The notes beneath the pieces were generated by a model, which was not told the DNA's origin, searched no databases, and saw only the letters and a program-made list of their open reading frames with translations. A stretch of DNA of 64,000 bases, from assembly GCF_030028105.1 (NCBI RefSeq), contig NC_092378.1, positions 113,759,731 to 113,823,730 of the forward strand, written 5' to 3'. The DNA comes from Mobula birostris (Eukaryota). Shown here in pieces: positions 7,633 through 59,500 of this stretch; position 1 is the stretch's first letter; every line of letters starts with the position of its first letter. The position numbers were made by a program, and so were the translations under genes.

Positions 7633-7854
7633 CCGCAGCACCGCCGAGCTACCGATTTATACCGCTACAGCGTCGTCACCACACCTCGTTCCCCACCCCA
7701 ACACTGAATAACACATTAATACAAGCTTGTTTGAGGCCGATGAATTGCTCCATGCTCGGTCTGGGCCTGATAATCTGTTGGTTAATCTCGCGAGATCTCG
7801 GAAGCTTTAATAGACGCGCGGGCCGGAGTTCGGCCTTCTGTGGAAAATTATCAC
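7633..7854. promoter_or_regulatory. RPS2: CpG-rich bidirectional promoter plus RPS2 non-coding exon 1 (about 7834-7854)
   Basis: Palindromic TCTCGCGAGA motif at 7786-7795, TATA-like tttaata near 7806, pyrimidine start ccttct at 7834 and donor CAC|GTAAGT at 7854/7855. Confidence 0.75.
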
Positions 7855-8952: not shown

Positions 8953-16314
<7,362 letters not shown>

Positions 16315-16869: not shown

Positions 16870-17460
16870 AATCAGAAGAGAAAACCTGCAGATGTTGGAA
16901 AGCCAAGTAGGGGATTGGTGAAACTGGGAGAAGGGGAAGAGTGAAGGAGATTAAAGGGCTGAAGAAGGGGGAACCTTGATAAACAGAAGGCCATGGAAGA
17001 AAGGGAAATGGGGGGAGTGCACCAGAGGGTGGTGATGGGCAGATGAGATGAGAGAGGGGAATGGTGGGGGTGGAATTATCAAGTTTGAGAAATTAGTGTT
17101 CAAGCTATCAGGTTGGAGGCTACCCACCCAGGTGAAATGTGTTGCTCCTCCAACCTGAATGTGGCATCGTCATAGCAATAGAGGCCATGGACTGACAGTC
17201 CATGCTCCTCTTCCCTGTCCTGAGTTCTATCAGATGCCTCCTCCAGCCTTTTATCTCCTTCAGCAATTGACTTCCCAGCTCTTCATCCCTCCCCTTATGG
17301 TTTCACTCATCATCTACTACCATGTACTACTTGCTCTCCTCCCCTCACCTTACTCTGACTTATCTTTTTTCTCCAGTCCTAATGAAGGGTCTCAGCAGGC
17401 CAGGCAACATCTATGGGAAAGGTGTTCTGGGCTGAGTTCCTTCAGCATTATGTATGTGTT
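16870..17460. mobile_element. Penelope-like 3' fragments in inverted arrangement
   Basis: atcaggttggaggctaccca matches the end of the PLE GIY-YIG region at 27857. Plus-strand terminal piece cagtcctaatgaagggtctcag. Confidence 0.65.
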
Positions 17461-19754
17461 TCTAAAATGAATGTTTCCACTACTAGCCCACTGTTAAAGC
17501 TGTTTCAGTTACCCAAGGCATAGTTAAATTTATTATCCATGTATAAGTCATCGTATATTACCTTGAGTTTCATTTTCTAGCAGCCATTCACAGTAGAACA
17601 GAGACAATAGAATCAATGTGAAACTACACAAAGACTCAGTTACTTAAGCTAGTCAGTTGTATATTCATGGAGCCTCCTGCAATACTAACAAAAGGATGTA
17701 TTTTGGGTGTGTGTCCTTTGAAGGGGTTCTGCTAGCTGGGATGTGCTACCTTCTACCATGTTTTATTTACATATGCAATACTGTATTAATTTGAGTATAT
17801 TCAAAATGTTTAGATGATATTAATCAAAACTAGTTAATTGAAGTGTAAAACAGGAAGTTTCTTGGATTCTTCTGATCTCTTGTTCTTCTTGAGGTTTGCT
17901 GCATTTCCCAGTTATAGCTGCTTTGTGGCTCAGTTGTAATCAGTCACCACAACCCCCTCCAGAATAATTATGAACATACTAGGTATACAGAGGGTACATA
18001 GTCACAAGAAGTTAACATACTGTAAAGTGCAGTGGGATAGGGGGTCTATTCATTCTTGTATTATTTTTCTTTACTGCTTTTTGGGTGGCACTATTACAGC
18101 TCAGCATTCAATCCTGGCATCCTCTAAGGAGTTTGTATGTCCACCCTGTGGAATGTATGGGTTTCTTCCAGGTGCTCCAGTTTCCTCCCACAGTCCATAG
18201 ACGTACTGGGTAGGTTAACTAGTCATTGTAAGTTGTCCTGTAAATAGGTTAGGGTTAATTGGGTGGCATAGCTTTAAGGGCCTGCTAAATAAAAACTATT
18301 TCCTGTCCACAAATCTGTTCTCCCTTTCCTGACTAGTCTATTGGCTGTTCCTTAGATCCTGCCTTTGCTTCAGAAAATTCCTATTTACATTGCTCCATGG
18401 TTTTTGTGCTGTGAATTTTCACGTGATTACATTTATTTTAGTTGAATGGCAGTTACTGAATTTGCAAATCTTTAATAATAAGCCATTATTATTTTATAGA
18501 TTGTATTTTATAATAGATCCATGACCAGGTGCCCTGCATCAGCATTCTTAATGGATCCATACGTTCCTTGGCTTATGTATGTTCATCTTTATTGTGCAAT
18601 GTAGAATTCAATATATTCAATTGATATTTATTGACGTACAATGTCAAGCCAAACTGCCCACTATCACCCCCCCCCCCAATCATAACCTAATCACAGGACA
18701 ATTCACAGGACCAATCAACCCAGCAAATGGTATGTCTTTGGACGATAGGAGGAAACACCAAACTTTTGCAATTGTTCCTTTCCTTTTTTTCCACCCTAAA
18801 ATTGTACAAAATCTTGCTTAAAATGTTGAAAAGAATGTTTCATCTTTAACTTTATGACTTTTGGAAATCAGTTCATCTTCTACTCAACTATTCATAGTAA
18901 CAGGAATTTTGACCAGGGGTGCCCAAACCTTTGTGTGCCACTAAGTAATGAGGTCCATTAGTCCCTATATGTGATGATTTTAATTTACAAAATACAATAA
19001 AACAATCAAATGCTGGAGGAACTCAGCAGGTTAAGCAGCACCTATGGAAATAAATAGTCAACATTTCCATAGATGCTACCTGACCTGCTGAATTGCTCCA
19101 GTATTTTGTGGGAGTATTGTTCTGGATTTTTAGTATCTGCAGAATCTTGTGTTAGCGATAAGTCTATTAGTATACTGAGATAAAAAACTGTACAGAGCAG
19201 GGTGGGAAGGTAGTTGTGAGGCAGGTGCCAAAGGATATTGTGAATGTGTAGGACACTGGCAACTGGAATGCAGGTCCAGAAGAAATAGTAGTATTTTAAC
19301 AATTTTTAAAAATGGCATCTGGAAATATTGGTGCAGTGTTTGGAAGGTGGTATATGAAAAGAATGCATCCAACTACTATCAATTTTCTACTCTATCCCCT
19401 TGGCCCTTGACTTCCTCACAGAATAAACGTTAGTCTACCTAGCCTAATTCTGTTTCTATGTTTTACGGTCTTGCAGTGGGATCTGGGTTCAACCATGATG
19501 CAATGGCGGACCTGACTTGATGGGATAAATGGCCCAATTCTGCTATGTCTTATGGTCTCGAATATATTCAAAGCCAGCTTCTGTCAATAACCAAGATCTT
19601 GTATGTTTCAATAAAATCACAATTTTTCTGAACTCTAGTGAATCCAATATGTTGAACCTCCAATTCTTAACCCTTTCAACCCAGGAATTAGTCAAGTGAA
19701 CCTTCTCCAATGCAAATTTATCCTTCCTTTTAAGACAACAAAAACATACTTGAA

Positions 19755-19970
19755 GCAACACACATCAAAGTTGCTGGTGAACGCAGCAGGCCAGGCAGCA
19801 TCTGTAGGAAGAGGTGCAGTCGACGTTTCAGGCTGAGACCCTTCGTCGGCCTGAAACGTCGACTGCACCTCTTCCTACAGATGCTGCCTAGCCTGCTGCG
19901 TTCACCAGCAACTTTGATGTGTGTTGCTTGAATTTCCAGCATCTGCAGAATTCCTGTTTGTGCTTTTAAA
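19755..19970 (+). mobile_element. Short Penelope-derived fold-back insertion
   Basis: About 84-bp near-perfect inverted arms (19753-19836 / 19846-19929). 15-bp TSD aaaaacatacttgaa (19740-19754, 19971-19985). Sequence matches the PLE terminus at 27426-27520. Confidence 0.9.
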
Positions 19971-21362
19971 AAAAACATACTTGAACTGTGGTTTCACCAG
20001 CACTGTTTAGAATTGTATAAAAACTTCCCTTTGCAAGATATACTAACACCCCTCTTAACATCCTATTTACTTCAATAACTTCATACCAATCTTTATTTCA
20101 TCCCTTCCCCCCCCTTTCTACTACTGAAAGTTGTAATCTCCCTTGTTTTAACTTTAAGTTTTTAACTTTTCCACCAATGTTGATGACCCAATTTTCCCTA
20201 CACATTTGTTTGCTGCGTTCTCACAATTTGCTAAACCGTCTCAGAATCAGATTTATTATCATTGGAATACATTGTGAAATCTCTTGCTTTGCAGCAGCAG
20301 TGCAATATATTAAAATACTATGAATTACAAAAATATTAAAGTAGTGCAAAAAGGAGAGGTACTGTTCATCAATTCATGGGCTTTTCACAAATGGTAGAGG
20401 GGAAGAAAGTTTCTAAAACAATGAGTGCTTGTTTTCAGGGTGGCATATCCTGGGTGGTGGGGATCCTTAATGATGAATGCCAACTTTGTTTACTTCAGTT
20501 AATTATGGAGTCTAGCCCAATAATTGTTCATTTAACATTTAAAATACCAGTTGTAGAGCCATACCTTTCTCTCCAAAACCAAATTTAAAATCACGCTCAT
20601 TGGTATCTAGAAGGAAGGTGGACAAAGTAATATGCAAGGTGGACAGTAGCTGAAGAAAATTAAGTTTCAACAACTGACTTAGTTTTTATAGAATAAAGAT
20701 AAAAACCTCAAAAGAAAAATGGCATATGGCCATCCAACCTCTGTTTACAATTTAGCAGCTTTCCACCATAGTTAACAGATTGTAATAATTTACTTTGCTG
20801 ATCAGGTTACTCTAAACCAATTTTGAGGTGCAATATACATACACAGTGATATCAAATACAAATTAGGATTTTGTGGAAATATCCTACCCTTGCAAACTTC
20901 ATACAAATAAAATTGAGGATGATGTTCCAAATTCATTTACACTTTGGAAATTGTTAGGCATAGCATTAACTGAATCACAAAAATACCTTTGCAATACCAG
21001 GATAATTGAGAAGGTCAGGTAGTGCTGGATATGTTTAACCAAAACACTGGTAAACTCTTGTGAGTGGAGAAGCTAAAATTTTTCCAAATGAACACTACTG
21101 AAGTGAGAGCTAATTTTCTAATCTATAAAGTGCAAATATTACCTGCATTTTCCGAGGGTCACAAGGACCAAAACATCCAAAGTATTGACAAGCATAGGTT
21201 ACAGATTAGACATTATTTATTATTTAGAAGGTCCATGTATCTTAATCACATTCATGTGAAATTTAGCATTCTGCACAATTTGAACATATTCAGACTATAC
21301 ACGAGTGATGGTTATCACACATTTCATTTAAAAATGACCACAGGCATGTTTGGCAAGGGCTC

Positions 21363-24300
21363 TCATGCTTCACCTTTTGCCTTTTTTCTTTCCTCAATCA
21401 TTCGATGTTTCTGCTTCATTAGACATTTTTTGGAACTAGCATAAGCCCCAAGATCACCATCTAAAAGAAGAGGGGGAAACCATCAGCAAGGGAATGCAAT
21501 TTAAAAAAAAATTCCATCTACTCAACTATTTATATGCATCTCAAGGGGGAAAAAGTGGAAAAGAAACATGGCACATCCAGTTACCTACTGCAAGGAATTC
21601 TTCCAATAAATTACACTCTTCATTTTCAACTTTGAAATCTTTTAGTAAAGTGTATGTATGATTTCAAACTAGAAAAGGCTGCTAGTGTCATACACCATGG
21701 AAACAGACTGTTCAGCCCAACTCATCCATGCCATGCAGAATGTCAATCTAAGCTAGTCCTATTTGCCTGAATTTAGTCTATATATCCCTCTAAATCAGGG
21801 CACCCCAACCAATGTTGTGCCATGGACTCCTACCATTGACTGAGGGGTCCATGGATCCCAGGTTGGGAACCCCTGCTCTAAACCTTTATTTCTAAAATCC
21901 ACGCACCTGTCCAAATCTCTAAATAGCTCTAATCAAACTTGCGTCTACAGCTTCTTCTGGTAGCTCATTCCATACACCCACCACACAATGTGCACAAAAA
22001 GTTGCCCTTCACGTCCATTATAAATGTTTTCCTTCTCACTTATAGTTTTAGATGCCCCTGCAGTGCCTCTCAGATTTTACTTATCTCTAAGGTACTTATC
22101 TCTCTGACTTTAACGCTCCAAGGAAACATGTCTAGCCACTGCAATCCTGTGCTCAACATAATGACCAATAAAGGCCTTTTTCACTTCCATTCCAGTCCTT
22201 ATGAGAAGGGTCTTGGCCAGAAACATTGACAGTTTAATTATTTTCATAGATGACCCTGACCTATTGAGTTCCTCCAGCATTTTGTGCGTGTGTGTTTGCC
22301 TTCTTCACTAATCTGTCTACTTGTGGCACCACTTTCAGGAAACTATGTACCTATACCCCAGGTCTACCTATTCTACAACACTCCCTAGGGGACTAGCATT
22401 TACTGTGCAAGTCCTGCTCTAGTGGGACTTCCCAAAATGCAACATCTCAACTTGTCTAATTTAAACTCCATCTGTTATTCCTTATGCTGTTTCTCTAGTT
22501 CATTTAAATCCTTTTGTAATATTGAAACCTTCTGTACTGTCCACTATACCACTGCAAACTAGTTATAATGCATTATGTGAGCAAGTTCGTATATATTTCA
22601 GCAGGGTATACAACTTGGATGCTCAAAAAGACTTTGCTACACAAGATTCAATACTATTTTATACAACTGATCTAATACTCTAAGATCCAGTAAAAGATCA
22701 GATGTTTAATTGGAGCTTTCTCAAAAATATTGATACAGATCCATAAAAGGACATTAAGATAAATGACCTAAAGCTAATGGAAAGATTTTGTGTTGCAAGC
22801 CAATATCCAGGTGCAATGATCATCAGCTAGGATAGCAAATACTACACTAGCTTTTAAGAGAATTTGAGAAGGGGAATGAACATACTGTAATTGTACAGGC
22901 CAATGGTGACACCACACCAGGAGTATGCAATTGAAATTATGGTCATCAACATAGGAAGGATTTAAAAAAAAAATCAGGAGTAAGCACGAGGTCAGAATTA
23001 GCAAAGCCAAATCTCAAACAATTACTTTACAGAGATGTTCGATGTATCAGGTGACAAGGACTAAACTAACTGAGACAAAGGAGGCTCGAAAAATGTGAAG
23101 CGAGGTCATGTACAGACAAGGGCAACATTTAAAAAGATGAAAATACTACAAAGCAGGTTGAGCAGCATCAGTGAGAAAGTGAGAAATTATCTTCAAATAA
23201 GGATGTCAGAGTTAGAGGAAGAAATAAGTAACTTGGTCCTTCAAATTTCTGTACCTCCATCGACATAATGACCAATCTTCTACCTCAATACCACTCTCCT
23301 GCACTATCGCTATACTCGTTGACTCTCACAATATTCAGAAATCTATAAACACAATGATAAAAGTCTCTGCCACCCGCCCCCCCCAACCACCACAGGGAAT
23401 TCCACAGATTCATTCATTATCCTCTGGTTGAAGACATTTCTCATCTCCATTTTAACTGCTTAAACTGGCCTGAAACCATGACCCAATTGTAAACTCCTCA
23501 TACCAAGAGAAACATCCTCTCTGTATCTGCCATGCCAAACCCGGTCTGATTTTTGTAAGCTTCAATAAGCTCTTCTCCCAGTCTAAATTAAGAGAACACT
23601 GGCTCTCTACACACTGACTCCTCATACAGCAAACCCTTTAGATGCTAAACTGGTTCCCAGACTCTCTGCTGTAATCACTCTAAAGCAGATATATCTTTTT
23701 TTAATGTAAAGAGACCAAATCTATACACAGTACTTTCTCACCAATGGCCTATATAATTATAGAATTCTTTTTATTCCTATTCAAAATCTCTTGCAATAAA
23801 AGTTAACATACCATTGGCCCTCTTAACTAATTGTTACACCTGTATGTTAGCTTTCAATTACTTAGAAGAACATCTCTTTGAAAATGAACAATTCGTAGCA
23901 TATTGCGATTTAAAAATATTATGCTTTGTTCTCTGCACCAAAAGGGAATCTTCATATTTTTCCACATTATGTTCTATCTGCCATGTTCTCACTCAATTAG
24001 CTCATCTTCCTCCTCCTTAAGCTTTTGAACATTCTCATTATTAACAATACCGCCAAATTTGTTACCATCAGGAAATTGGGCACATGACACATGACTCTCT
24101 CTTGCAGATCACTGTTACAAGCACTAATTCTGCTGTAACTCAATTACTTGCCATTCTGGAAAAACCTGTTTATTCCCAATTTTTGCTTCTGTCAAGTAAC
24201 CAGTTTATAAACCATGCCCCAATTCAATACATTAACCAGACTAAGTGGTACTCTATCAAAAGTCTTTTGAAAATATGAATACATTCTCAGCTTTGAATCA

Positions 24301-27300
24301 ATTTATTCTACCAGAAATATTCTCAAATTACTTCCAAGATTAGTTGAAGACATTTCATCATATTTATATATGCAAAGAGAATTCTTACACCAAGAATTAT
24401 TACACAAAGGCATTGGTCAGACCGAAATTGATAAGCAATTTTGGGTTCCTTACCCAAAGAATGATGTGTTGGCATTGGAGAGGGTTCAGAGGAGGATCAC
24501 GAGGAAGATCCCAGGAATGAAATGGTTATTGTATGAGGAGTGTTTTATGGCTGAGCCTGAGCTCACTGCAGTTTAGAAGAATGGGGGTGGGGTGGGGAGA
24601 GACCTCATTGAAACCAAATATTTAAAGGCCTAGTTAGAGGGGACATGGAGAGGATGTTTCCCATAGTGGGGAAGTCTACAACCAGAGGGCACAGCCTCAG
24701 AATAGAAAAACATCCTTTTAGAACTAATATGAGGAGGAATTTCTTTAGCCAGAGGGTAGTGAATCTGTGGAATTCATTGCCGCAGACAGCTGTGGAGGTC
24801 AAGTGATCGGGTATATTTAAGGTGGAGGTTGATAGGTTCATTAGTAAGGGTGTCAAAGATTACAGGGAGAAGCAGGAGAATGGGGTTGAGAGGAATAATA
24901 AATCAGCCATGATGGAACAGAAGAAGACACTTAATGGGACAAATGCCTTAATTCTGCTGCTATGTCTTATAATTTTATTGCCAGATCAGAGCAGAAGTTC
25001 AGATGAAGTGTGACAAACCTGAAACATCGCCTTTTCCTCTCTCCACAGATACTGCCTGGCTTGTTGAGTTTTCCCAGTATTTTCTATTCTTAATTAATTT
25101 TTAAAAATATTTTCAGAGACAATCTTGACAATCTAACAGCTGAACAGAACTGTGTGGGTTAGGATTTGGACATTAGGCTTCAATGAGCAAGTTTATGAAC
25201 ATTGACTGTAATACGGGAGGACAGCCAATGAGGCAAGTGAATAATGTGTGTCTTGAGGATGTTCTGTACCTCATGCTACATGCCCCTGATGTCACTGCAA
25301 GTAGGATTTTCATTGCATCTGTGCATAAATATTATGTACCCAACAAACTTTACTTTGGAAGAAAGGGCTGATGGAAATGGAAATTTCAGGAAACGAGCTG
25401 AGCCAAAATTGAAAATGGAATTTTCATTCAAATAACTACGCCGTAAGAGTTACTTACATCTTGACTCGTAGCCTTTAGCTGCTTCCTTGAACTGGTCCAG
25501 TTCTTTGGCGCAGTTCTGTACGTAGCTGTTACCTTCCCGTTGCTGGCAGGCCCTCAGACGCTCCTGGAGAATTTTAATAATTTCTTGATCGACTTTGCTG
25601 AAGTAAAAGGTGCAGGTTTATTTAAAACAAAGAAAAGTTTTACTTGATTTTAGAAGATTTACTGGTTTGGTATGATCTATGTGGTTTAGCCATCACTCAA
25701 TATTCGATTTCCAACAACTCTATCCATGGCTTAACCCTAGACTTCATTACTTGTTTGCTTTGACTTTCAATGAACTAAGTACATTAAATATACAACAAAA
25801 ATCACACATAACCCTGCCTACAAAAGACAGCAATGAAGAAGAACTGAAACTAGCAACAGGCCTGACCTTTATAAGGTGTGATAGATTTCCCCCTTTGTCT
25901 GAGAACATGTATATTCTCTAAAACCCCAATCCTCTAGCTGAATAGATGCTGCTCAGGGAGAGTACAGATTAGGTCCAAAATAATGAGGGCTGAGAAAAGG
26001 GCTAAAAAAAAGAAACCCAAACTGTTGAAGTTTAATACAAATTTAATATGCTTTTTATGCTTTTCGACTCTCCTTTTTCTACATTAAACAAACAGTCTTG
26101 CTCATTTTTAGGATTTGTGTAACTGTATCCTGGTTTAGTTTACTGCTTTGCTCCAGTCAGTACCTTAACCAAGTCAAGAAAGACAGAAGGTACAAGTTAT
26201 TGAAAAAAGTGAAAGGGAGACAAAACCAAGGGAGAAATGCACAGGAGAATCAGATCTCATGTAAACTATTGGAAAAAAAAGTCACTAATATTCCTTTTGA
26301 AGTGGCTTTCTTGAAAATTACTGGCACTACATTACAGAGATTATGAGTATCTACCTAGATAAAATGCTTGTAATTTTGCTAGTGTACAGTTTTCTCTCCT
26401 TCCTGCTGGGCTTCAAAAGATTGGCTACCCCATGCCAGAAGAATGAAGGAAATAGCTCAGGGAAACACTTTCTAGTTCCTGATGTACTTTGGTATGTGAG
26501 TAGGAAACCAACCTGAATAACTTAACTGAAATCATTGTCTGTCTCCATTCCATAAGAACAACCATGTTTGTCTCACCAGCAAAACAGTACTTTCAAAATT
26601 AAAAATAAGAAGTAGGTACATACTAATCCCTTCTCCACTGCATCTCTGCCTCATAATAGCACAGGTAATCACCCAGTTGACAGTCAGTCAAATCTGGCAC
26701 TCGTCTGAAATTCTGATGGTAGTAGTAAAATTTATTCTTTTGTTGTTGCCGTTCCACCCATTCTGCAAAAATAAAAACACTACATTCAGTTTGTAAGCAA
26801 GTCCATATTCAAAATTTCTCAAGGAAACTTTTTTCTTAACCAATGGATTTGCAGTTGATTTTGGTATTTACCAGAATACATGGGGATGAAACAGTTAGCA
26901 GTTTAGGTGACTGTTTCCATGTGAATCTTTGGTTGAGCTTCAACCATTACTATGAAGTGTTAGACAACTGTACACGAGTCAAGTTTGGTTTCACAATCTC
27001 GAAGCAGTACTGCCCATGTTGAAAAGGAAGATATAACATGGATGCAAAAATGTTCAACCTACAACTACACAACTCTTCCATTAATAATGGAAGTACAGCA
27101 ACAGCCTCTTTTGTAGAAAGGATTTCAAATGCTGGAACATCTGATACAAACAAGGAATATATTTGATTCAAGCCAGGTGAGATTATAGTTGTTCAGTCCA
27201 TAATCAAAGTGGGATGGACAATCATACTTCCTAAGCACACAGTTGAGAGAAATGGCATAAGGAATTACAGGAGCAAGTGATATGGCTCCTGAGACTACTT

Positions 27301-30300
27301 TATCAATCAATTCAATCACAGATAAATCTTCTACCTCATTCAATATTTAAATCAAATAGTCAAAACCACCAATTAAAGAAGTTTAAAAACTCAAACACGA
27401 GAAAATCTGTAGATGCTGGAATTTCAAGCAACACACAAAGTTGCTGGTGAACGCAGCAGGCCAGGCAGCATCTCTAGGAAGAGGAGCAGTAGACGTTTCA
27501 GGCCGAGACCCCTCGTCAGGACTAACTGAAGGAAGAGTGAGTAAGGGATTTGAAAGTTGGAGGGGGAGGGGGAGATCCAAAATGATAGGAGAAGACAGGA
27601 GGGGGTGGGATGGAGCCAAGAGCTGGACAGGTGATAGGCAAAAGGGGATACGAGAGGATCATGGGACAGGAGGTCCGGGAAGAAAGACGGGGGGGGGGGG
27701 GGAACCCAGAGGATGGGCAAGGGGTATAGTGAGAGGGAGAAAAAGGGGAGAGGGGGAGGGGGATAGAGAGAATGTGTGTATAAAAATAAATAACGGATGG
27801 GGTACGAGGGGGAGGTGGGGCATTAGCGGAAGTTTGAGAAGTCGATGTTCATGCCATCAGGTTGGAGGCTACCCAGACGGAATATAAGGTGTTGTTCCTC
27901 CAACCTGAGTGTGGCTTCATCTTTACAGTAGAGGAGGCCGTGGATAAACACATCAGAATGGGAATGGGACGTGGAATTAAAATGTGTGGCCACTGGGAAA
28001 TCCTGCTTTCCCTGGCGGACAGAGCGTAGGTGTTCTACTGCCCCACCGAACTAATTTCTGCATACCTCGACACAGTTTTATCCCCCTTTGTTCAATCCCT
28101 TCCTACCTATGTTCGTGACACTTCTCACGCTGAAACTTTTTGATGATTTTAAGTTCCCTGGCCCCCACCGTTTTATTTTCACCATGGATGTCCAGTCCCT
28201 ATATACTTCCACCCCCCATCAGGAAGGTCTCAAAGCTCTACGCTTCTTTTTGGATTCCAGACCTAATCAGTTCCCCTCTACTACCACTCTGCTCCGTCTA
28301 GCGGAATTAGTCCTTACTCTTAATCATTTCTCCTTTGGCTCCTCCCACTTCCTCCAAACTAAAGGTGTAACTATGGGCACCTGTATGGGTCCTAGCTATG
28401 CCTGCCTTTTTGTTGGCTTTGTGGAACAATCCATGTTCCAAACCTATTCTGGTATCTGTCCCCCACTTTTCCTTCTCTACATCGACGACTGCATTGGCGC
28501 TGCTTCCTGCACACATGCTAAGCTCGTTGACTTCATTAATTTTGCCTCCAACTTTCACCCTGCCCTCAAGTTTACTTGGTCCATTTCCGACACCTCCCTC
28601 CCTTTTCTAGATCTTTCTGTCTCTGTCTCTGGAGACAGTTTATCTACTGATGTCTACTATAAGCCTACTGACTCTCACAGCTATCTGGACTATTCCTCTT
28701 CTCACCCTGTCTCTTGCAAAAATGCCATCCCCTTCTCGTAATTCCTCCGTCTCTGTCGCATCTGCTCTCAGGATGAGGCTTTTCATTCCAGGACAAGGGA
28801 GATATCCTCCTTTTTTAAAAGAAAGCGGCTTCCCTTCCTCCACCATCAACTCTGCTCTCAAACGCATCTCCCCCATTTCATGCACATCTGCTCTCACTCC
28901 ATCCTCCCGCTACCCCACTAGAAATAGGGTTCCCCTTGTCTTCACCTACCACCCCACCAGCCTCCAGGTCCAACATATAATTCTTCGTAACTTCCACCAC
29001 CTCCAACGGGATCCCAACACTAAGCATATCTTTTCCTCCCCCACCCTCTCTGCTTTCCACAGGGATTGCTCCCTACGCGACTCCCTTGTCCATTCGTCCC
29101 CCCCCATCCCTCCCCACCGATCTCTCTCCTGGCACTTATCCTTGTAAGCAGAACAAGAACAACACATGCCCTTACATTTCCTCCCTTACCACCATTCAGG
29201 GACCCAGACAGTCCTTCCAGGTGAGGCAACACTTCACCTGTGAGTTGGCTGGGGTGATATACTGCATCCGGTGCTCCCAATGTGGCCTTCTACATATTGG
29301 CGAGACCCGATGCAGACTGGGAGATCATTTCGCTGAACACCTACGCTCTGTCCGCCAGAGAAAGCAGGATCTCCCAGTGGCCACACATTTTAACTCCACC
29401 TCCCATTCTGATATGTCTATCCACGGCCTCCTCTACTGTAAAGCTGAAGCCACACTCAGGTTGGAGGAACAACACCTTATATTCCGTCTGGGTAGCCTCC
29501 AACCTGATGGCATGAACATTGACTTCTCAAATTTCCGCTAATGCCCCACCTCCCCCTCGTACCCCACCCATTATTTCTTTATATACACACATTCTTTTTC
29601 TCTCTCCTTCTTCTCCCTCTGTCCCTCTATACCCCTTGCCCATCCTCTGGGCTTTCCTCCCCCCCCCCCCTTTTTCTCCCTAGGCCTCCTGTCCCATGAT
29701 CCTCTCATATCCCTTTTGCCAATCAACTGTCCAGCTCTTGGCTCCATCCCTCCCGCTCCTGTCTTCTCCTATCATTTTGGATCTCCCCTTCCCCCTCCCA
29801 CTTTCAAATCTCTTACTAGCTCTTTTTTCAGTGAGTCCTGACAAAGAGTCTCAGCCCAAAATGTCGACTGTACCTCCAATTAAATAAGTTTGTTTTCTCA
29901 GTTCTAAGTGGCTTCCTATTGTGCTCAAAGGACATCTGAAATGCAGTGAAATAATTCAATAGATCAAAAGACTACCTATTTTATGGATTATAGACAAACT
30001 TGCAGTCTCCCTGCATGCAGCAAAACTTAGACAAAAGTTGTAGGCATGGATTGAAAAGTAGCAAAAACCCAGAACTGCCAGGCCGTAACTATTTCCAACA
30101 AGATAAAGTGACACTGCGGTAAAAAGGTCACTTATGATCTTCTTAAATGGCACAGCAGGGACAGGGAGATGAAAAGTCCTCTCCTACATCTATATTCTGA
30201 TATTCACATAACCTTTACAATCTAAGGGATTACTACTTTTAACTCCACTATTAGCAACATCATGGAGGTCACTGTTGCCCAGAAGCTCCACTGGGCCAGT

Positions 30301-32416
30301 TCCATAATACTGTAACTACAATAGCAAGTTAAAACTTCAGTTGGAACTTGCTTACATCATCTCCTCAACCACTTCAGCTTTTTCACCATCTTCAATGCAT
30401 ATGTCAGAAGCCTAATGGGATGCTCTTCATGTGCCTGGATGAATACAGTTCAAAAATTTCAAGATGCCCCATATTATCAGGGCCACTACCATGATTGTGC
30501 GTTTCCCCCCTCCAACACTATACTGACTTCATTGTGAACCAATTTCAAAATGCCCTGCAGTCACTCACCACGACACTTCCAATTGTCTCCCAATCCGGCC
30601 CATACTACAAAGAGCAGCATCCCACCTTAATTTGCACACCATTCCTCCCAGACTTGGAATTATTGTCAATAGGTCTAATTGCTGAAATCACTACACAACT
30701 ACTTGCATTAGGGTTAGCATAAGCCTAGCCTAGCCCTACCATCTGCAAGTGGTTTGAGAAGATAACTCATCACCACCTTTTCACAGGTAATTAGCATCAG
30801 GCAATAGCAACATTCCAAAGAAACAATCTTAAAAAACACAGTTAACACATTTTTCTACTGTGGAGATAGCAAATACTGATATTAAATAAATTACAGTGCA
30901 TTGTTTCAAAGGCTTTTTCTATCTGAGTATAATTATGAGTTTTGTGAGTGGTTACATCTTTTGTCTTCCTATCTCAAAGGGTCTATTATTAAGCTTTTTT
31001 TTGTTAATGACTATAGTGAACAGTAGGCAATAACTGGACATCATGTTGTTGTACAAACTTTACAATTATAGTAGTATTTCTTCACTTGCCTAATTTTTAA
31101 ATCTCCCTTACCATAGGCCTGACAGGTGATTCGGTGAACAAGTTTCCACTAAGTTCATCAATTTTACTCTAAAATAAGTAAGTAGAAACAGAGTGATCCA
31201 GAATGTGGCACCCTCTTTCAGGCAATCTCATCAAATTACAAATGCTATTCAACAAGTCTATTGAATTAACTAATATACCATCATTATCTGGCCATAGTGA
31301 ACTTAACCATAGTTTTGTATCCTTGAACTAAGTACTGCAAGAAGATGGAACCAAAGGAATGTTTCATCCACAGCTTGGAGAGAAGGTCCATTTCTTCCCA
31401 GCAAGTACAACAGTAGAACAGGCAGTTCTGTCTTGGATCTAAATATGAACACCCTACTGCACATGTGCCTCTTCAGTGTTGTACAGCTAAAACTCATCAT
31501 AAATGACATTTGAGTTTTCTCATCGTAGTTGAGGAAAACTGCACAGTTTGTACAAACCCATCAGACATGGGGGGGGGGTGTGGAAATGAGACATACAAAA
31601 AAAAACAATTGACACATACAAAATGCTGGAAGAACAAAGCAGATCAGCATATATGGTGGAAAATGAAGAGTGGATGTTTCCTCAACACTGGTTTAAAAAA
31701 AGAGGGCAGAAGTCATAATAAAAAGGTGGGTGAGGAGCACAAACTGACAAGTGAATAAAAAGCACAATGCAGTCCACACCCAGAAAGCCCAAGTCTCAAA
31801 CCTGAAAGGAAGCAAATGTTGACTTTTTAAAAATGTAACATTCTTCTGATTCTCACAGGACAAGATGGGTTTATGTCAATTTTTTGAAATTCACAGTAGG
31901 AAATGAAATCTCCAGCATCTGTTGCACAGGGTATTTACAATGTGACAAGAAATACAGATTAACCCTCTTTTATATATGCACATTATAAATTAAATTGCTA
32001 GAATTCTAATGAACCGTAAAACTGAAAAGTTAACTGTTTTTTCTTCCTCTCTCCCAGATGCTGTTTGACCTGATGAGTCTTTCTAACGTTTTCTGCTTGA
32101 ACAGACACCCAGCATCTGCTTTGGAACTAAAACTGAAGGTGCGTGTGCTTTAGGTGCTAACACTCGCTGTGACTGCAAGCACTTGCCATTGCAAACACTT
32201 CTGCTCAGTGAAGGGCATCCCTGGCCCAGGACAGAAGTCGGCCTCATCCACATTCAACCCTCACTCACCCCTGAAGGTTGTAACCGGTAAATCCACCGCA
32301 TAGTAAAAAAGCTTGCTAGCAATAAATGCAGGATTGGGCAGGGCGGTCTGCTTGTCCACTACCGGAGTCCGACTGGCAGGCTGTTTGTAAACGTCCTTGT
32401 CCCCATCTTCCGGCAT
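21363..32416 (-). CDS. NDUFB10: NADH:ubiquinone oxidoreductase subunit B10 (PDSW), 174 aa
   Basis: Exons 32416-32269, 26762-26624, 25597-25458 and 21460-21363, all GT-AG: [119 protein letters not shown] at 21221-21216. Confidence 0.97.
21796..21875. mobile_element. 80-bp hAT (Charlie/MER5-like) MITE inserted in a minus-strand CR1 remnant (about 21685-22560)
   Basis: TIRs cagggcaccccaacc / ggttgggaacccctg; 8-bp TSD ctctaaat / ctctaaac. Confidence 0.8.
24411..24970 (+). mobile_element. CR1 LINE 3' fragment
   Basis: [26 protein letters not shown] remnant and a 3' end similar to 12925-13445. Confidence 0.82.
27385..29877 (+). mobile_element. Penelope-like element (RT + GIY-YIG) with inverted terminal segment
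   Basis: PLE RT motifs ([23 protein letters not shown]) at 28088-28741 and GIY-YIG (VIYCIRC..HIGET..EH) at 29086-29541. 27385-28034 is an inverted copy of the 3' end. 14-bp TSD aattaaa(g/t)aagttt (27371-27384, 29878-29891). Contains stops and frameshifts. Confidence 0.92.
27488..27523 (-). ncRNA. Minimal type-I hammerhead ribozyme motif in the PLE terminus
   Basis: Minus strand reads AGUC-CUGACGA-GGG-GUCUCGG-CCU-GAAAC-GUC-UACU. Core CUGANGA/GAAA/UH is intact, with stem II and a palindromic ACGU stem III. There is one stem-I mismatch versus sibling copies, which have GACU. Confidence 0.75.
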
Positions 32417-32949: not shown

Positions 32950-33048
32950 AACACACATCAAAGTTGCTGCCTGGCCTGCTGCGTTCACCAGCAACTTTGA
33001 TGTGTGTTGCTTGAATTTCCAGCATCTGCAGAATTCCTCGTGTTTACT
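32950..33048 (+). mobile_element. 99-bp Penelope-derived fold-back insertion
   Basis: Inverted arms aacacacatcaaagttgctg / cagcaactttgatgtgtgtt. 13-bp TSD atcttaatctgac (32937-32949, 33049-33061). Same 3' tail as 19755-19970. Confidence 0.85.
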
Positions 33049-34974: not shown

Positions 34975-37900
34975 TATGAACTTCCTGCTGATCTTATGTT
35001 ATTAAGATCAAAAGAATACGTTTCAGGCTGAGACCCTTTTTCAGGACTGGAAAGGAAAGAGGAGGACACCTGAATAAAAAAGTGGCCGGGGGGGTGGTGT
35101 GGTGCGAGGGGTGCGGAGGGGAAGGATGAGCTTGAAGGTGATAGGTGAAGACAGGTGGGTGGGAAAAGTAAAGGTAATGGTCTCAAGAAGAAGGAATCTG
35201 ATAGCCGAGGACAGTGGGCCATGGAAGCAAGGGAAGAAGGAGGGACACTTTGGGGTATGATAGGCAAGTGAGGAGGGGCCAGAGTGGAGAACACAAGAAG
35301 ATGAAAGGGGCAGGAAAAAAATTACCGGAAGGAGAAATCGATGTTCATGCCAACAGGTTGGAGGCTAGCTAGATGGTGTTGCACCTCCACCCTAAGAGTG
35401 GTCTCATAGTGGACAAAGGTGAGGCCATAGACTAACATGTCAGAATGAGGACAGGAATTTAAAAAGTTGGCCATCAGAAAAATCCACTTTGGGTGAATGG
35501 AGCAGAGGTGCTTGTCAAAGCAGTCCCCTAATTTTGGATGAGTGTGTGCCCACAAAGACTTGCTGTACATTCCCAAACCAAAAGCTGTGGATGAACCAAG
35601 AGGTACATCACCTGTTGAAGGCTAGATCTGTGGCATTTAAGGCTGGCGACCCAGACCTGCACAAGAAAACCAGGTATGACTTGTAGAGGGCTATTTCTAG
35701 GGCAAAGAGACAATTTTGATCGAGGTTGGAGGCGACATCGGATATATGACAACTCTGGCAGGGTTTGCAAGACATTACTTCCTACAAAGTGAAACCCAAT
35801 ACATAGCATGAACAGCAGTGATGCTTCACTATCAGATGAAACTCTACACCTTCTATGCCCGCTTTGAGAGGGAGAATATAACTACAGCTGTGAAGACCCT
35901 GCTGCACCCAGTGACCCTGTGAACTCTGTCTCGGAGGCCAATGTTGGGCTGCCTTTAAAGAGGGTGAACACTCGCAAGGTGAGAGGCCCTGACGAAGTAC
36001 CTGGTAAGGCTCTGAAAACTTGTGCCAACCAACTGGTGGGAGTATTCAAGGACATTTTCAACCTCTCACTACTATGGGTGGAAGTTCCCACTTGCTTCAA
36101 AAAGGCAACAATTATACCAGTGCCTAAGAAGAATAACGTGAGCTGCCTTAATGACTATCGCCCGGTAGCACTCACATCGACAGTGATGAAATGCTTTGAG
36201 AGGTTGGTCATGACTAGACTGAACTCCTGCCTCAGCAAGGACCTGGACCCATTGCAATTTACCTATCACCACAATAGGTCAACAGCAGACACAATCTCAA
36301 TGGCTCTTCACATGGCCTTAGACCACCTGGACGATAGAACCACCTATGTCAGGATGCTGTTCATTGACTATAGCTCTGTATTTAACACTATCATTTCCAC
36401 AATCCTGATTGAGGAGTTACAGAACCTGGGCCTCTGTACCTCCCTCTGCAACTGGATCCTCGATTTCCTAACCAGAAGACTACAATCTGTGCGGATTGGT
36501 AAAAATATCTCCTCTTCACTGACTATCAACACTAGTGCACCTCAGGAGTGTGTGCTTAGCCCACTGCTTTGCTCTCTCTATGCTGATGACTGTATGGCTA
36601 GGCATAGCTCAAATATCATCTATAAATTTGCTGATAATACAACCATTGTTTGGTAGAATCTCAGATGGAGATGAGGGGGCGTACAGGAGTGAGATATACC
36701 AACTAGTGGAGTGGTGCCACAGCAACAACCTTGCACTCAACATCAGTAAGATGAAAGAGCTGATTGTGGACTTCAGGAAGGGTAAGACGAGGGGACACAA
36801 ACCAATCCTCACAGAGGGATCAGAAGTGGAGAGAGTGAGCAGTTTCAAGTTCCTGGGTGTCAAGATCTCTGAGGATCTAACCTGGTCCCAACATATGGAT
36901 GCAGTTATAAAGAAGGCAAGACAGCAACTATACTTCATTAGGAGTTGTAGAGATTTGGTATGTCAACAAAAACACACAAAACCTTCTATAGATGTACCGT
37001 AGAGAGCATTTTGATAGGCTGCATCACTGTCTGGTTATGGGGGCAGCGGGGGGTGGGGAGGTTCTACTACACAGGACTGAAAGAAGCTGCAGTGGATTGT
37101 AAATTTAATCATCTCCATCTTGGGTATTAGCCTACAAAGTACCCAGGGTATCTTCAAGGAGTGGTGTCTCAGAAAGACAGCGTCCATTATTAAGGACCCC
37201 CAGCACTCGAGGCATGCCCTTTTCTCACTGTTACCATCAGGTAGGAGATGCAGAAGCCTGAAGGCACACACTCAGCGATTCAGGAGCAGCTTCTTCCCCT
37301 CTGCCATCTGATTCTTAAATGGTCATTACCCCAATTTTTAAATATATATTATTAATATATATTTGCATAATTTTTAATCTAGTCAACATACATATACTGT
37401 AATTAATTTATTGGTTTATTTATTTATTATTTTTCCATTTCTTCTATATTATGCATTGCATTGAACTGCTGCTGTTAAGTTAACAAATTTCACAACACAT
37501 GTCAGTGATAATAAACCTGATTCTGATTCTAATTTACGCCAGGTCTCAACAATGTTGAGGAGGCCATATCATGAGCACCAGATACAATAGATAACCTAAC
37601 AGATTCTCAGACTTGCAGATGAATGGGCAGGTGTAGCACTTCTGTGGCTTGCAGGGTATGTGTCAGGAGGGAGACTGGGGGAAGGGATGAATGGACAAGG
37701 GAATCACGGAGACTCGGTAAAGACATGATTGGTGGCAGGATCCCCTTGAAGCTGTGGAAGTTGTGGAGAATAATGTGTGGGATACAGAGGCTAATGGGGT
37801 GGTAGGTGAGGACAAGAGAAACTCTATTCCCGTTAAGGCAGCAGGAAGATAGGGTGAGTGTGGATTTCCGGGAAATGGAGGAGATGTGGGTGGGGACAGC

Positions 37901-40344: not shown

Positions 40345-41115
40345 TCATGTCCATTTCACGCACATCTGCCCTTACCCCATCCTCCCGCTACCCCCGCAGG
40401 GATAGAGTTCCTCTTTTGTTCACCTACCACCCCATCGGACTCCGTATCCGGCACATAATTCTCCGTAACTTCCATCATCTCCAATGGGATCCCACCATCA
40501 AACACATCTTTCCCTACCCCCGCTTTCTGCATTCAGTAGGGATCGCTCCCTGCACGATTCACCTCCCCACTCATCTCCCTCCTGGCACTTATCCTTGCAA
40601 GCAGAACGAGTGCTACACCTGCCCCTACACCTCTGCCTTCACTACCATTCAAGGCCCAAGCAGTCCTTCCAGATGAGGCAACACTTCACCTGTGAGTCAG
40701 TTGGGATCATCTAATGTATCCTGTGCTCCTGGTGTGGCCTCTCGTACATCAGTGAGATTTGGCATAGATTGGAAGACCGCTTCGCCGAGCACCCACACTC
40801 GATCCATTAGAAAAAGCAAGATCTCCCAATGGCCACCCATTTTAATTCCACTTCTTATTCCCATTCCGATATGTCAATTCATGGCCTTAGGCTCTTTCAC
40901 CAATCAACTCCCAGCTTTACTTCACCCCTCCTCCTCCCAGTTTCACCTATCACCTTGTGCTTCTCCCTCCCCTCCCCTCCCCCACCTTCTAATTCTGACT
41001 CCTTGTCTTTTCTTCCTCCACTCCTGCTGAAGGGACTCAGCCCAAAACATTGACTGTACGCTTTTCCATAGATGCTGTCTGGTCTGCTGAGTTCCTCCAG
41101 CATTTTGTGTGTGTT
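40345..41115 (+). mobile_element. Penelope-like 3' fragment
   Basis: RVPLLFTYHP and [15 protein letters not shown] plus the terminal repeat; homologous to 28870-29877. Confidence 0.82.
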
Positions 41116-56500: not shown

Positions 56501-59500
56501 GCAATTAGATCCTTGACTTCTTAACTGGAAAACCACAATCTGTGCAGATTGGTGATAACGTATCCTCCTCACTGACAATCAACACTGATGCACCTCAGGG
56601 GCATGTGCTTAGCCCACTGCTCTACTCTCTATATACACATGACTGTGTGGTTAGGCATAACTCAAATACCATCTATAAATTTGTTGATGATACAACCATT
56701 GTTGGTAGAATCTCAGGTGGTGACAATAGGGCGTACAGGAGTGAGATATGCCAACTAATGGAGTGGTGCCGCAGAGCTGATTGTGGACTTCAGGAAGGGT
56801 AAGACGAAGGAACACATACCAATCCTCATTGAGGGATCAGAAGTGGAGAGAGTGAGCAGCTTCAAGTTCCTGGGTGTCAAGATCTCTGAGGATCTAACCT
56901 GGTCCCAACATATCGATGTAGTTATAACGAAGGCAAGACAGCGGCTATACTTTATTAGGAGTTTGAAGAGATTTGGCATGCCAACAAATACACTCAAAAA
57001 CTTCTATAGTTGTACCATGGAGAACATTCTGACAGGCTGCATCACTGTCTGGTATGGAGGGGCCACTGCACAGGACCGAAAGAAGCTGCAGGAGGTTATA
57101 AATCTTGTCAGCTCCATCTTGGGTACTAGCCTACAAACTACCCAGGACATCTTTAGGGAGCAGTGTCTCAGAAAGGCAGCATCCATTATTTAGGACCTCC
57201 AGCACCCAGGGCATGCCCTTTTCTGTCTGTTACCATCGGGTAGGAGATACAGAAGCCTGAAGGCACTCACTCAGCGATTCACGAACAGCTTCTTCCCTTC
57301 TGCTATCTGATTCCTAAATGGACATTGAATCTTTGGACACTACCTCACTTTTTTTTTAATATACAGTATTTCTCTTTTTGCATGTTTTAAAAAATCTGTT
57401 CAATATACATAATTGATTTACTTGTTTATTGATTATTATTATTATGTTTATTTATTATTATTATTATTAATTTTTCTCTGCTGGATTATGTATTGCATTG
57501 AACTGCTGCTGCTAAGTTAACAAATTTCACGTCACATGTCGGTGATAATAAGCCTGATTCTGATTCTGAGAAAGACAGGTTGAATAATAGTTTTGCCTCA
57601 ACCTGAGGTCCTGCCCTGGAAAATTCATCTCTTGCTTGGATATCCGACTAATTTGAAAAGTATGGTTAGTTGAACAAGAGTTTGACTGAAAGCAGTTACA
57701 ACATTTTGTAAATTGTGCTTTTCTGCATTGGAAACACTTTGTTAATGGGGTCACCAGAAAAGCTGAAACAGTGTAAATAAGGTGGATTGTACATTGGAAA
57801 ATAAAATGCATGAGCTGCTAGAAGGTGGAGCAGGTCCACAGGTGGGCATTGTAGAACCATGTCCAGTTCTTCTTATTCTTTTCAATTTCTTATAAATTTG
57901 CAAGATTCATTTGGAAAATTCAGCCTTATGACATAAACATAAAGGGTATTTTCTGTCATGTCTTTGAGAAGAATAATTAATATCTTTTCAATATAGTATA
58001 AGATACGGTCCATGCCATATTTGCATGTTCAATTAGGTGCAAGAGTAAGAGGAAAGCCTTTACTAAATACAACAAGAAATGGCAGGATGAGGCGGGGAAG
58101 AAACAACTGGAGAAAGATTTTGAAGCCATGAAGAAGTATTGCAAAGTCATCAGAGTCATTGTTCATACTCAGGTGAGAACTTTTTTTTCTCTGTTGTACT
58201 TATCTACTTCTTCCAATTCTAGACATTAATTTTTAAGACCCATATTACAAAGTGGGGCCAGATTGGTATCAAAGCAATTCCAAAAGCCGTGCTACTGTGA
58301 TGACTTGCAATGTGTTTTACTTCAAGCATGGGAGCAGCATCTTCAGAACTAGTGGAAAGACTGAGAATTCTTAGATGTCATTTCTCACTATGACTTCAAA
58401 CCTATACTATTGAAGCTTGATCGATACGGCAGAGCCCTATAATGTGGTGTAAGGATTCACCTTTGGCACTAGTGATCAGGACTATGGCGTTCTGAGGATT
58501 ATAAAGTTAACCTGTTTTAAAATTTCAAAGCAGTTGAATAGTACTGACAATTTTAAGTTTTAATGTCAGAAGTGCACACAATTCAGAATTTAACACAGCA
58601 TTTAGACCAATGCATTTAATAATAATAATAATTCCAAGTTAAAATTAAAAAATAGTTTTGAAGTGTTAATGTTGTTAAATAAATGCAAGTTGACGATCTT
58701 CTGAGGGGCGTTGATCTGAAAGGTCATCAGTCTGCAACATTAATTTTGCTTTTCTTTCCATTCTGATCTATGAGTGTTTCCAGATTTCTATTTAAGTTTC
58801 AGATTTACAGTATCCGAGGTGTTTTACTTTTGAACTGATTTAACCCTTTTCACAATCTTAGGATGTCCCTTTGTTCTGCAAAATCAATTATGTGTTGTCA
58901 CCAAGATCCTGCAAACAGCAATTTCAACATCAACAAAACACGGGCTGGTAATCTCTTTTTGTCCCAAGGCATGGTAAACTAGCTACACATGGTGGGTCAA
59001 CGCATCATTTGTGTGAGGGCCCTCCTAGCAGTAATTTCTGTTGTATGTGCTTCACTAATTCCTCCATTGAAAAGCTGATCAAACTGAGTGACACAAAGAC
59101 AAGAAAATTTGCAGATGCTGGAAGTCCAAGCAACACTCACAAAAAGCTGGAAGAACTCAAGGTCAGGCAGCATCTATGGAAAAAAGTAAATGGTTGATGT
59201 TTCGAGCTGAGACCCTTCATCAGGACTGGAAAATAAAGATGAGAAGGTAGAGCAAGAAGCTGGGATGAGGGGAGGAAGAAGTACAAGATGATAGGTGATA
59301 GGTGAAACCGGGAGAGGAGGAGTGGTGAAGTAAAGAGCTGGGAAGTTGATAGGTGAAAAAGATAAAGGGCTGGAGAAGGGGGAATCTCATAGGAGAGGGT
59401 AGAGACCATGAAAGAAAGGGAAGGGGGAGGATCACCAGAGGGAGGTAAAGAGATAAGGTGAGAGAGGGAAACGGGAATGGGAATGGTGAAGGGTAGGGGA

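What the first reader, a model, noticed from the sequence alone, without database searches (positions are those of the whole stretch)
27488..27523. Minimal hammerhead ribozyme in the termini of this genome's Penelope family
Seen: combining the copies at 27488-27523 (-) and 19818-19864 gives the consensus AGUC-CUGACGA-AGG-GUCUCRG-CCU-GAAAC-GUC-GACU. This has stem I (AGUC/GACU), the full catalytic core, stem II and a palindromic ACGU stem III. Eroded versions occur at about 17375, 22193, 29834, 35018(-), 41024, 59190(-) and 59886. Known: Penelope-like elements can carry minimal type-I hammerheads that cleave as dimers. Inference: this lineage has an abundant, probably unannotated, ribozyme-bearing PLE family. 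The best copy is in sense orientation within NDUFB10 intron 1 and could cleave the pre-mRNA 3' of the GUC at 27494-27492.
Basis: partly seen in the sequence, partly recalled or inferred. Interest (0 to 1): 0.75.

Follow-up and report, generated by a model that had tools for sequence, protein, structure and literature searches.

The report
Dead ray Penelope hammerhead in intron
This is a mutated leftover of the tiny self-cutting RNA motif that Penelope-type jumping genes are already known to carry; it sits in an intron of a ray gene, where it is predicted to be zipped up against its own mirror copy and so likely cuts nothing.

Summary
The motif is real and matches the known minimal type-I hammerhead of Penelope-like elements (PLEs; PMC4209133). 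It lies in the end repeat of a broken, Neptune-type PLE inserted in NDUFB10 intron 1 of a ray-like genome (27391-29876, 16-bp target duplication). Related invertebrate elements carry the same core, in sense with the ORF, with different but pairing stems (13 of 80 loci; 1 hit in 20 shuffled sets). The family is very abundant, roughly 10^5 copies.

The pre-mRNA cleavage idea is not supported. The 'best' copy has U instead of the family's G (83%) next to the cut site, which breaks stem I. The insertion's inverted arm is predicted to pair with 34 of its 36 bases. None of 15 window copies is intact. 19818-19864 is not a second ribozyme but two truncated halves back to back. Published minimal PLE hammerheads need a dimer or the element's protein.

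One side clue: the two arms carry different subfamily variants, hinting at two RNA templates per insertion. This scan has noted both the motif (93 notes, at least 24 genomes) and the two-template hint before on other DNA.

The parts
27488..27523 (-). Minimal type-I hammerhead copy: all 13 scored core letters intact, 1.1 changed to U (stem I junction pair broken), base after A9 changed to G; nominal cut 3' of 27492
27391..28035 (-). Left arm of the PLE insertion: C-terminal end of the GIY-YIG domain (27844-28035), 3' UTR/pLTR, hammerhead and the long tail ending 100 nt past the cut site; sense to NDUFB10
28039..29876 (+). Right arm and body: 5'-truncated RT, Cys linker, GIY-YIG (stop at 29539-29541), three frame changes, 3' UTR, ending 11 nt past the cut site; antisense to NDUFB10
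29834..29869 (+). Eroded hammerhead of the right arm (G8, G12 and C15.2 changed); the predicted pairing partner of 27488-27523 in the pre-mRNA
27369..27384 (+). Target-site duplication, left copy (15 of 16 identical to the right copy)
   Evidence: (D10)
29876..29891 (+). Target-site duplication, right copy
   Evidence: (D10)
19750..19975 (.). Separate fold-back mini-insertion of two 5'-truncated ends, each with part of the motif; target duplication at 19737-19754 / 19968-19985; downstream of NDUFB10
32269..32416 (-). NDUFB10 coding exon 1 (name recalled from the protein sequence and gene order, not from a database call)
26624..26762 (-). NDUFB10 coding exon 2; intron 1 is 26763-32268 (5506 nt)
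59190..59229 (-). Eroded motif copy of another subfamily (G16.2 and 1.1 changed)
41014..41062 (+). Eroded motif copy (A6, G12, G16.2 changed), 3' of a second PLE coding remnant at 40257-41027
59878..59926 (+). Eroded motif copy (A6, G12 changed)
22188..22238 (+). Eroded motif copy in NDUFB10 intron 3, antisense to the gene
35018..35054 (-). Eroded motif copy, cut off inside the 3' half of the core
17361..17463 (.). Rearranged fold-back remnant holding the 5' half of the motif

Best explanation
The 36-base motif is a mutated copy of the minimal hammerhead carried in the end repeat of a very abundant Penelope-like retrotransposon, left in NDUFB10 intron 1 by one broken, inverted-arm insertion, and it is likely inactive there. 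Shown: the sequence, the insertion with its target duplication, the broken ORF, the 1.1 mismatch and the same motif in related elements. Inferred: in an intact parent element two RNA copies would pair through ACGU, probably helped by the RT-endonuclease protein, and each would be cut 3' of GUC, trimming tandem or read-through transcripts. Reverse transcription likely starts 55 or 100 nt past that site, so every insertion carries the motif as cargo. After insertion the copies likely decay neutrally, mostly at CpG. Predicted: in the pre-mRNA this copy pairs with the antisense arm made just before it and cannot fold.
For: PLE identity: the RT fragment is 88-91% identical to two Mobula hypostoma proteins and about 50-60% to many RT proteins, some also bearing a GIY-YIG Pfam hit; homologues show the CX4CX2C linker and the CxxC..YIG..H..H endonuclease pattern. 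Architecture: inverted arms, 16-bp duplication and a tail at one end only, as drawn for PLEs in PMC8557442 and PMC3846280 (passages). Motif homology: 16 descriptor hits in 13 of 80 related loci, 14 in sense with the RT, against 1 hit in 20 shuffled sets; all 16 had the unpaired A and the CG palindrome although the descriptor allowed other forms. In 12 of these, 7 of 8 pairs show changes on both sides and G10.1-C11.1 is invariant. Decay: 0 of 15 window copies are intact, and the defects are commonest at G16.2 (7), U4 (6), G8 (5), C15.2 (5) and G12 (4), four of which are CpG-prone sites. This copy: the active dimer scores -6.5 kcal/mol against -16.7 for the window majority and -8.7 to -23.9 for 12 invertebrate motifs; 34 of 36 bases pair with the antisense arm at P above 0.9, and stem I and II pairs have P below 1e-20. 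Family ends pile up at 27392 and 27436-27437, similar to the 85-92 nt spacing that follows from the numbers given for the anole element (PMC11167929). Published: a monomer did not cleave, dimers cleaved weakly (PMC4209133), and the anole motif cleaved only with protein (PMC11167929).
Against: No cleavage assay was possible, for this copy or the family. This copy is the only one of 15 with all 13 core letters, so its 5' half could in principle act in trans if it were free. The covariation count is partly circular because the hits were chosen by a descriptor that demands pairing. The model score for the window copy is modest (rough E 0.02). The folding result is an equilibrium prediction; editing or helicases could open the duplex. 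The ray majority has U at 11.1 (C in 6%, 4%, 29% and 35% of depth in the four runs, biased towards the reference), which departs from the invariant G10.1-C11.1 of the homologues, so even the parent may be a weak cutter. The role of cleavage in the element's cycle is unsettled: ribozyme mutants did not affect insertion in vitro (PMC11167929).
Confidence: 0.9

Rival explanations
1. One reading: this copy cleaves NDUFB10 pre-mRNA in intron 1, in a dimer with another transcript of the family, and lowers or tunes gene output.
For: Sense orientation in intron 1; all 13 core letters intact while 14 other copies have core defects; many family-like contigs in two runs guessed to be RNA (770 and 976 laid), so partner RNAs may exist.
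Against: The 1.1 mismatch is on the strand that would be cut. The motif is predicted to be fully paired with the antisense arm. Its active fold is the weakest of 14 scored. Minimal PLE motifs cleave poorly even when intact (PMC4209133). Cleavage of an intron by a slow hammerhead still allowed splicing, as summarised in PMC2995048 (passages). With CpG sites changed in about 10-16% of family depth, one core-intact copy in 15 needs no selection.
Confidence: 0.03
2. In the parent element the motif serves mainly as an RNA-RNA pairing signal rather than a cutter: ACGU and stem I join two RNAs in one dimeric particle, each is copied from one of the two DNA nicks, and this makes the tails-out inverted insertion.
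For: The two arms inside one target duplication differ at 49 of 537 aligned bases. In the part covered by family frequencies, 6 of 23 differences are at sites where both letters are common (18% or more), against 0.4-1.1 expected (binomial P 2e-6 to 5e-4 under my assumptions). The anole protein is predicted to be a dimer and nicks and extends both strands (PMC11167929).
Against: One locus only; the frequencies are biased towards the left arm and the table was cut. Two different end repeats of one tandem transcript, or later gene conversion, would give the same picture. The 19750-19975 arms are 97% alike and uninformative. Naiad PLEs make inverted insertions without canonical hammerheads (PMC8557442), and self-priming on an antisense template is a published alternative (PMC3846280). 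Nothing here ties the two templates to the hammerhead.
Confidence: 0.15
3. The motif is vestigial in the ray lineage: the dominant ray subfamilies amplified with a non-functional hammerhead.
For: U at 11.1 in the majority; U4 changed in 6 of 15 window copies, twice to the same A in similar-looking old copies; ribozyme mutants did not impair insertion in vitro (PMC11167929).
Against: The window majority keeps all core letters and a 5-bp stem I. Old window copies with different stem letters still show pairing stems by eye. The core has been kept between rays and invertebrate relatives whose RTs are 44-65% identical.
Confidence: 0.15
4. Chance resemblance to a hammerhead.
For: The bare core pattern is not enriched over shuffles; no Rfam hammerhead match; no unusual folding energy of the isolated strand (z 0.79).
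Against: The same core sits at the same place in related elements with unrelated stems, and an independent model ranks family copies in the first three places.
Confidence: 0.01

Closest known systems
Minimal type-I hammerheads (min-HHR) in pLTRs of metazoan PLEs, including Xena, Poseidon and Neptune of fishes, coelacanth and Xenopus (Cervera and De la Pena 2014, PMC4209133; parts 1-2 of 4 read)
   Same: Core boxes, no loop 3, palindromic 15.2-16.2, short stem I, place in the terminal repeat, thousands of dispersed variable copies.
   Different: Remnant numbers look one to two orders above the 4,000-9,000 reported there, but those were descriptor-intact motifs, so the counts are not comparable. 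Rays are not named in the parts read; supplementary file 1 could not be searched.
PAc, the Poseidon element of Anolis carolinensis (Frangieh et al. 2024, PMC11167929; parts 1-2 of 4 read)
   Same: Hammerhead shortly upstream of two preferred end points; optional tail; AT-rich target.
   Different: Poseidon clade, lacking the Cys linker. Its ORF starts inside stem II, which was not shown for the ray element. Its activity was assayed; this one was not.
EN+ PLE insertion unit with inverted 5'-truncated pLTR, one-sided tail and target duplication (Pen2/Pen2a of Adineta vaga, PMC3846280; Fig. 2 legend of PMC8557442; passages read)
   Same: Head-to-head arms, tail on one arm only, target duplication.
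   Different: The duplication is 16 bp rather than 8-10, the tail is about 45 nt rather than 30-40, and the two arms carry different subfamily letters.
Non-LTR retrozymes with canonical type-I hammerheads (PMC7229834, passages; bioRxiv 10.64898/2026.07.22.740005, part 1 of 5 and passages, which reports them and PLEs in one chondrichthyan)
   Same: Type-I hammerhead in a PLE-related repeat.
   Different: Retrozymes are tandem non-coding repeats, mostly with the canonical motif; this is the end of a coding PLE, dispersed and inverted.

Membership tests
PLE minimal type-I hammerhead (family-level motif) | C3-U4-G5-A6-N7-G8-A9 and G12-A13-A14-A15.1 ... U16.1-H17 core boxes | tested here: met
   Present in 27488-27523 and in the window majority
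PLE minimal type-I hammerhead (family-level motif) | No loop 3; palindromic 15.2-16.2 allowing helix III only in a dimer | tested here: met
   ACGU in this copy and in 16 of 16 hits in related loci
PLE minimal type-I hammerhead (family-level motif) | Helix I of about 4-5 bp starting at 1.1-2.1 | tested here: met
   5 bp in the majority of 8 window copies; G at 1.1 in 83% of depth in run X1
PLE minimal type-I hammerhead (family-level motif) | Helix II, typically after an unpaired base and opened by G10.1-C11.1 (typical, not part of the published descriptor) | tested here: inconclusive
   Helix II can form. G-C is invariant in 12 of 12 invertebrate motifs but the ray majority has U at 11.1, so the opening pair is G-U or A-U depending on register
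PLE minimal type-I hammerhead (family-level motif) | Located in the pLTR, in sense with the ORF | tested here: met
   297 nt past the stop codon in the window; 84-143 nt in the 7 related loci where the endonuclease ORF end was clear
PLE minimal type-I hammerhead (family-level motif) | Self-cleavage as a dimer or with protein | not testable with these tools
   Needs an assay; the runs held are contigs and cannot show RNA ends
Functional hammerhead (this one copy, 27488-27523) | Intact 1.1-2.1 pair and freedom to fold in its transcript | tested here: not met
   C-U mismatch; predicted pairing with the antisense arm. Filed as a defective descendant, not as a working ribozyme
Canonical type-I hammerhead / non-LTR retrozyme | Match to canonical models; tandem non-coding repeat units | tested here: not met
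   No Rfam hammerhead match; no tandem copy of the motif among the direct repeats of 27300-30000
EN+ Penelope-like element | RT followed by a C-terminal GIY-YIG endonuclease with the CCHH pattern | tested here: met
   RT hits; collinear with a 931-aa homologue bearing PF00078 and PF01541; pattern read in the translation. Pfam itself gave no hit for the window's endonuclease fragment
EN+ Penelope-like element | pLTR, 5' truncation, inverted copy, one-sided tail, target duplication | tested here: met
Neptune (or Nematis) clade | CX2-5CxxC linker between RT and endonuclease (PMC8557442) | tested here: met
   In the homologue alignment and the window remnant 40257-40673; the middle Cys is changed in this copy
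Neptune (or Nematis) clade | RT phylogeny placing it in Neptune rather than Nematis | not tested

The most novel reading that the evidence does not exclude
PLE hammerheads are RNA dimerisation signals: two element RNAs pair through the ACGU palindrome in one dimeric particle and are copied from the two nicks of the target, which is why one insertion here has arms from two subfamilies. Ray genomes, with about 10^5 copies and several distinguishable subfamilies, would make the two-template model directly testable by counting arm pairs.
Probability: 0.12. Interest if true: 0.6.

Novelty: new member of a known kind. Interest (0 to 1): 0.15.

Why it matters
As a ribozyme finding it matters little: it extends a motif described in 2014 to rays, and this copy is likely dead. 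If the host-cleavage idea were true it would be a rare case of a PLE ribozyme acting on a host mRNA, but the evidence is against it. The lasting value is the family as a large natural record of PLE insertion (fixed end points, inverted arms, mixed-subfamily arms), which bears on the open questions of what the hammerhead does for PLEs and how the inverted structure forms.

Tried and rejected
Whole-genome scan: no genome is held for this window, so copy number and the core-versus-loop test rest on Logan contigs. The core-versus-loop test on ray copies was inconclusive: one search showed 40 rows and cut 23, and the shown rows inside the motif were CpG sites, position 11.1 and this copy's private changes; a second pass on a 60-base stretch returned no variant table. 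Rfam at two thresholds gave no hammerhead. The isolated strands fold no better than shuffles (z -0.65 to 0.79), so I make no claim for a special structure in the tail. RNA ends at the cut site could not be seen because all laid runs were contigs and their RNA status is a guess. A search for a paper on the 1.1-2.1 mismatch found none that I read; that such a mismatch slows the chemical step is recalled, not sourced. An automatic search for target duplications at 8 fold-back or terminal remnants found clear ones at 2; the other 6 are older or my ranges were off. Rejected: retrozyme (not tandem), canonical type-I hammerhead, chance, and reading 19818-19864 as one ribozyme. Literature searches for a report of this motif in rays or sharks found none that names it; the library lacks most subscription papers, one supplement of PMC4209133 was not searchable, and the bioRxiv supplements are closed, so absence from print is not shown.

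Full report
Observation. The bare core pattern alone is not above chance (3 matches, 1.39 expected), and Rfam has no matching hammerhead model (the only gathering-level hit in the window is snoRNA ACA64). Two points need correcting. The 27488 copy has U at position 1.1, so its stem I is not the consensus one. And 19818-19864 is the centre of a fold-back of two truncated arms with its own target duplication, neither arm holding the full core.

Setting. Four exons on the minus strand join into an open 174-aa frame that I recognise as NDUFB10 (the name is recalled, consistent with RPS2-like and RPL3L-like frames nearby). Intron 1 runs 32268-26763. The motif lies in one insertion, 27391-29876, bounded by a 16-bp duplication with one mismatch. 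The insertion has two arms pointing outwards: a short one on the minus strand (end of the endonuclease, 3' UTR, hammerhead, long tail) and a long one on the plus strand (truncated RT, linker, endonuclease, 3' UTR, eroded hammerhead, 11 more bases). The ORF is 5'-truncated and changes frame three times. The RT fragment is 88-91% identical to two Mobula hypostoma proteins and 64-81% to other ray and shark proteins, so the host is likely a ray. The Cys linker and endonuclease pattern point to the Neptune or Nematis type (PMC8557442, passages). No tree was built.

Abundance and age. Logan contigs from four runs laid on 27250-27660 gave summed depth of 5-13 million over the motif against 36 on the unique flank in run X1. 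That suggests the order of 10^5 copies at 80% likeness or better, though the tool warns that this depth is not a copy number. The window itself holds 15 remnants that span the motif in 64 kb (the other 16 of 31 hits cover only the 3' part or the tail and were left out). Contigs of X1 and X6 run from the flank into the element. Family 3' ends pile up at 27392 and 27436-27437, that is 100 and 55-56 nt past the cut site. This matches the optional tail of PLEs and resembles the anole element, where reverse transcription starts 111-118 nt into the ORF and the cut is at 26 (PMC11167929).

Is the motif a true hammerhead homologue? Of 80 related loci from metagenomes (293,314 bases, RT 44-65% identical, many too short to reach the 3' end), 13 gave 16 hits to my minimal descriptor, 14 in sense with the RT. 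Twenty shuffled sets gave 1 hit in all. Every hit had an unpaired A before stem II and the CG palindrome, neither forced by the descriptor. In 12 of the 16 hits (four duplicates or second copies dropped), 93.8% of cells pair, 7 of 8 pairs have changes on both sides, and G10.1-C11.1 is invariant; the pairing figures are partly circular because the descriptor demands stems. A model from these 12 alone ranks 27486-27525, 59190-59229 and 19815-19855 first in the window (rough E 0.02-0.04). So the ray motif is homologous to the min-HHR of PMC4209133. One departure: the ray majority has U at 11.1.

Can this copy cut the pre-mRNA? Likely not. First, G is found at 1.1 in 83% and A in 15% of family depth, so U is nearly private. 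In the dimer the 3' half of one RNA pairs with the 5' half of the other, so this change sits on the strand whose cleavage would break the pre-mRNA. That a mismatch there slows cleavage is recalled, not sourced (one search found nothing that I read). Second, the active dimer scores -6.5 kcal/mol, the weakest of 14 scored (window majority -16.7; invertebrate motifs -8.7 to -23.9; the energy model does not score the tertiary core, and all active folds lay above the minimum). Third, folding 27340-29930 in the gene's sense pairs 486 of 645 left-arm bases, and 34 of the 36 motif bases, with the antisense arm at P above 0.9; that arm is transcribed first. Fourth, in print a monomer did not cleave and dimers cleaved weakly (PMC4209133), while the anole motif needed the protein and no RNA reads ended at its cut site (PMC11167929). 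Fifth, splicing survived intron cleavage by a slow hammerhead, though not by a fast delta ribozyme (as summarised in PMC2995048, passages). Against my reading: this is the only one of 15 copies with all core letters, and nothing was assayed.

Conservation of core against loop across genomic copies is a weak test, because inserted copies are expected to decay neutrally. In the window, defects fall most on CpG-prone core positions and on U4. The contig tables could not settle it. Across lineages the core is kept while stems and loop change, which is the informative comparison.

A side clue. The two arms differ at 49 of 537 bases. Among 23 differences in the part with family frequencies, 6 are at sites where both letters are common, far more than the 0.4-1.1 expected from random change. 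This hints that the arms were copied from two different templates, which would fit a dimeric particle extending both nicks. Two end repeats of one tandem transcript or gene conversion explain it equally well, and nothing links it to the hammerhead. Earlier notes of this scan report the same hint at other loci, with mixed verdicts; I had reached it.

What I saw of each paper. PMC4209133: parts 1-2 of 4 and a term search of two supplements (file 1 not searchable). PMC11167929: parts 1-2 of 4. bioRxiv 10.64898/2026.07.22.740005: part 1 of 5 and passages; supplements closed, and they may list the chondrichthyan motifs. PMC8557442, PMC7229834, PMC3846280, PMC2995048 and PMC8455134: passages only. 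Searches found no paper naming this motif in rays.

Verdict. Real motif, known kind, new host lineage at most, and a likely dead copy. Interest 0.15.

Noticed in passing
window 27391-28035 and 29335-29876: The arms would form a roughly 500-bp duplex in NDUFB10 pre-mRNA, a likely A-to-I editing substrate; with so many fold-back insertions PLEs could be a major source of intronic dsRNA in rays. One literature search returned only a human TE review.
   Followed up: partly
window 19008-19146, 5842-6004, 17361-17463, 51769-51915, 61116-61294: Five more back-to-back pairs of element ends, in most cases with one long and one short tail; clear target duplications were not recovered for them.
   Followed up: partly
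window 59092-59240(-), 35018-35060(-), 17365-17390, 22183-22200 and about 15-25 nt past the cut site in most copies: A pyrimidine tract ending in CAG overlaps the 5' strand of stem I in one subfamily, and a second tract ending in YAG lies just past the motif. Both look like 3' splice sites; in D. virilis Penelope an intron ends at helix I (PMC4209133). Judged by eye only.
   Followed up: no
window 24992-25042(+), 61160-61212(-), 10322-10372(+): An older subfamily with different stem II letters shows U4 replaced by A twice and by C once; this may be a subfamily core variant rather than decay.
   Followed up: no
proteins P0003, P0005, P0007: Annotated 'isoforms' of ordinary ray and skate genes (chitinase domain protein 1, divergent protein kinase domain 1C, nicotinamide riboside kinase 1) contain this PLE RT at 67-91% identity: either exonisation or gene-model artefacts.
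   Followed up: no
L008:1028-4123: A full-length relative with an open frame of about 990 codons between two direct repeats 3066 nt apart, each with an intact hammerhead whose cut triplet is GUA; a good natural positive control.
   Followed up: partly
window 32959-33045(+): A tail-only piece of the same young subfamily just upstream of NDUFB10 exon 1, with no hammerhead; a short sequence seems repeated on both sides of it.
   Followed up: no
window 6620-6749(-), about 8850-9000(+), about 50742(+), 4229-4714(-): snoRNA ACA64, an RPS2-like N-terminus, an RPL3L-like exon and a Tc1/mariner transposase remnant; gene names recalled.
   Followed up: no
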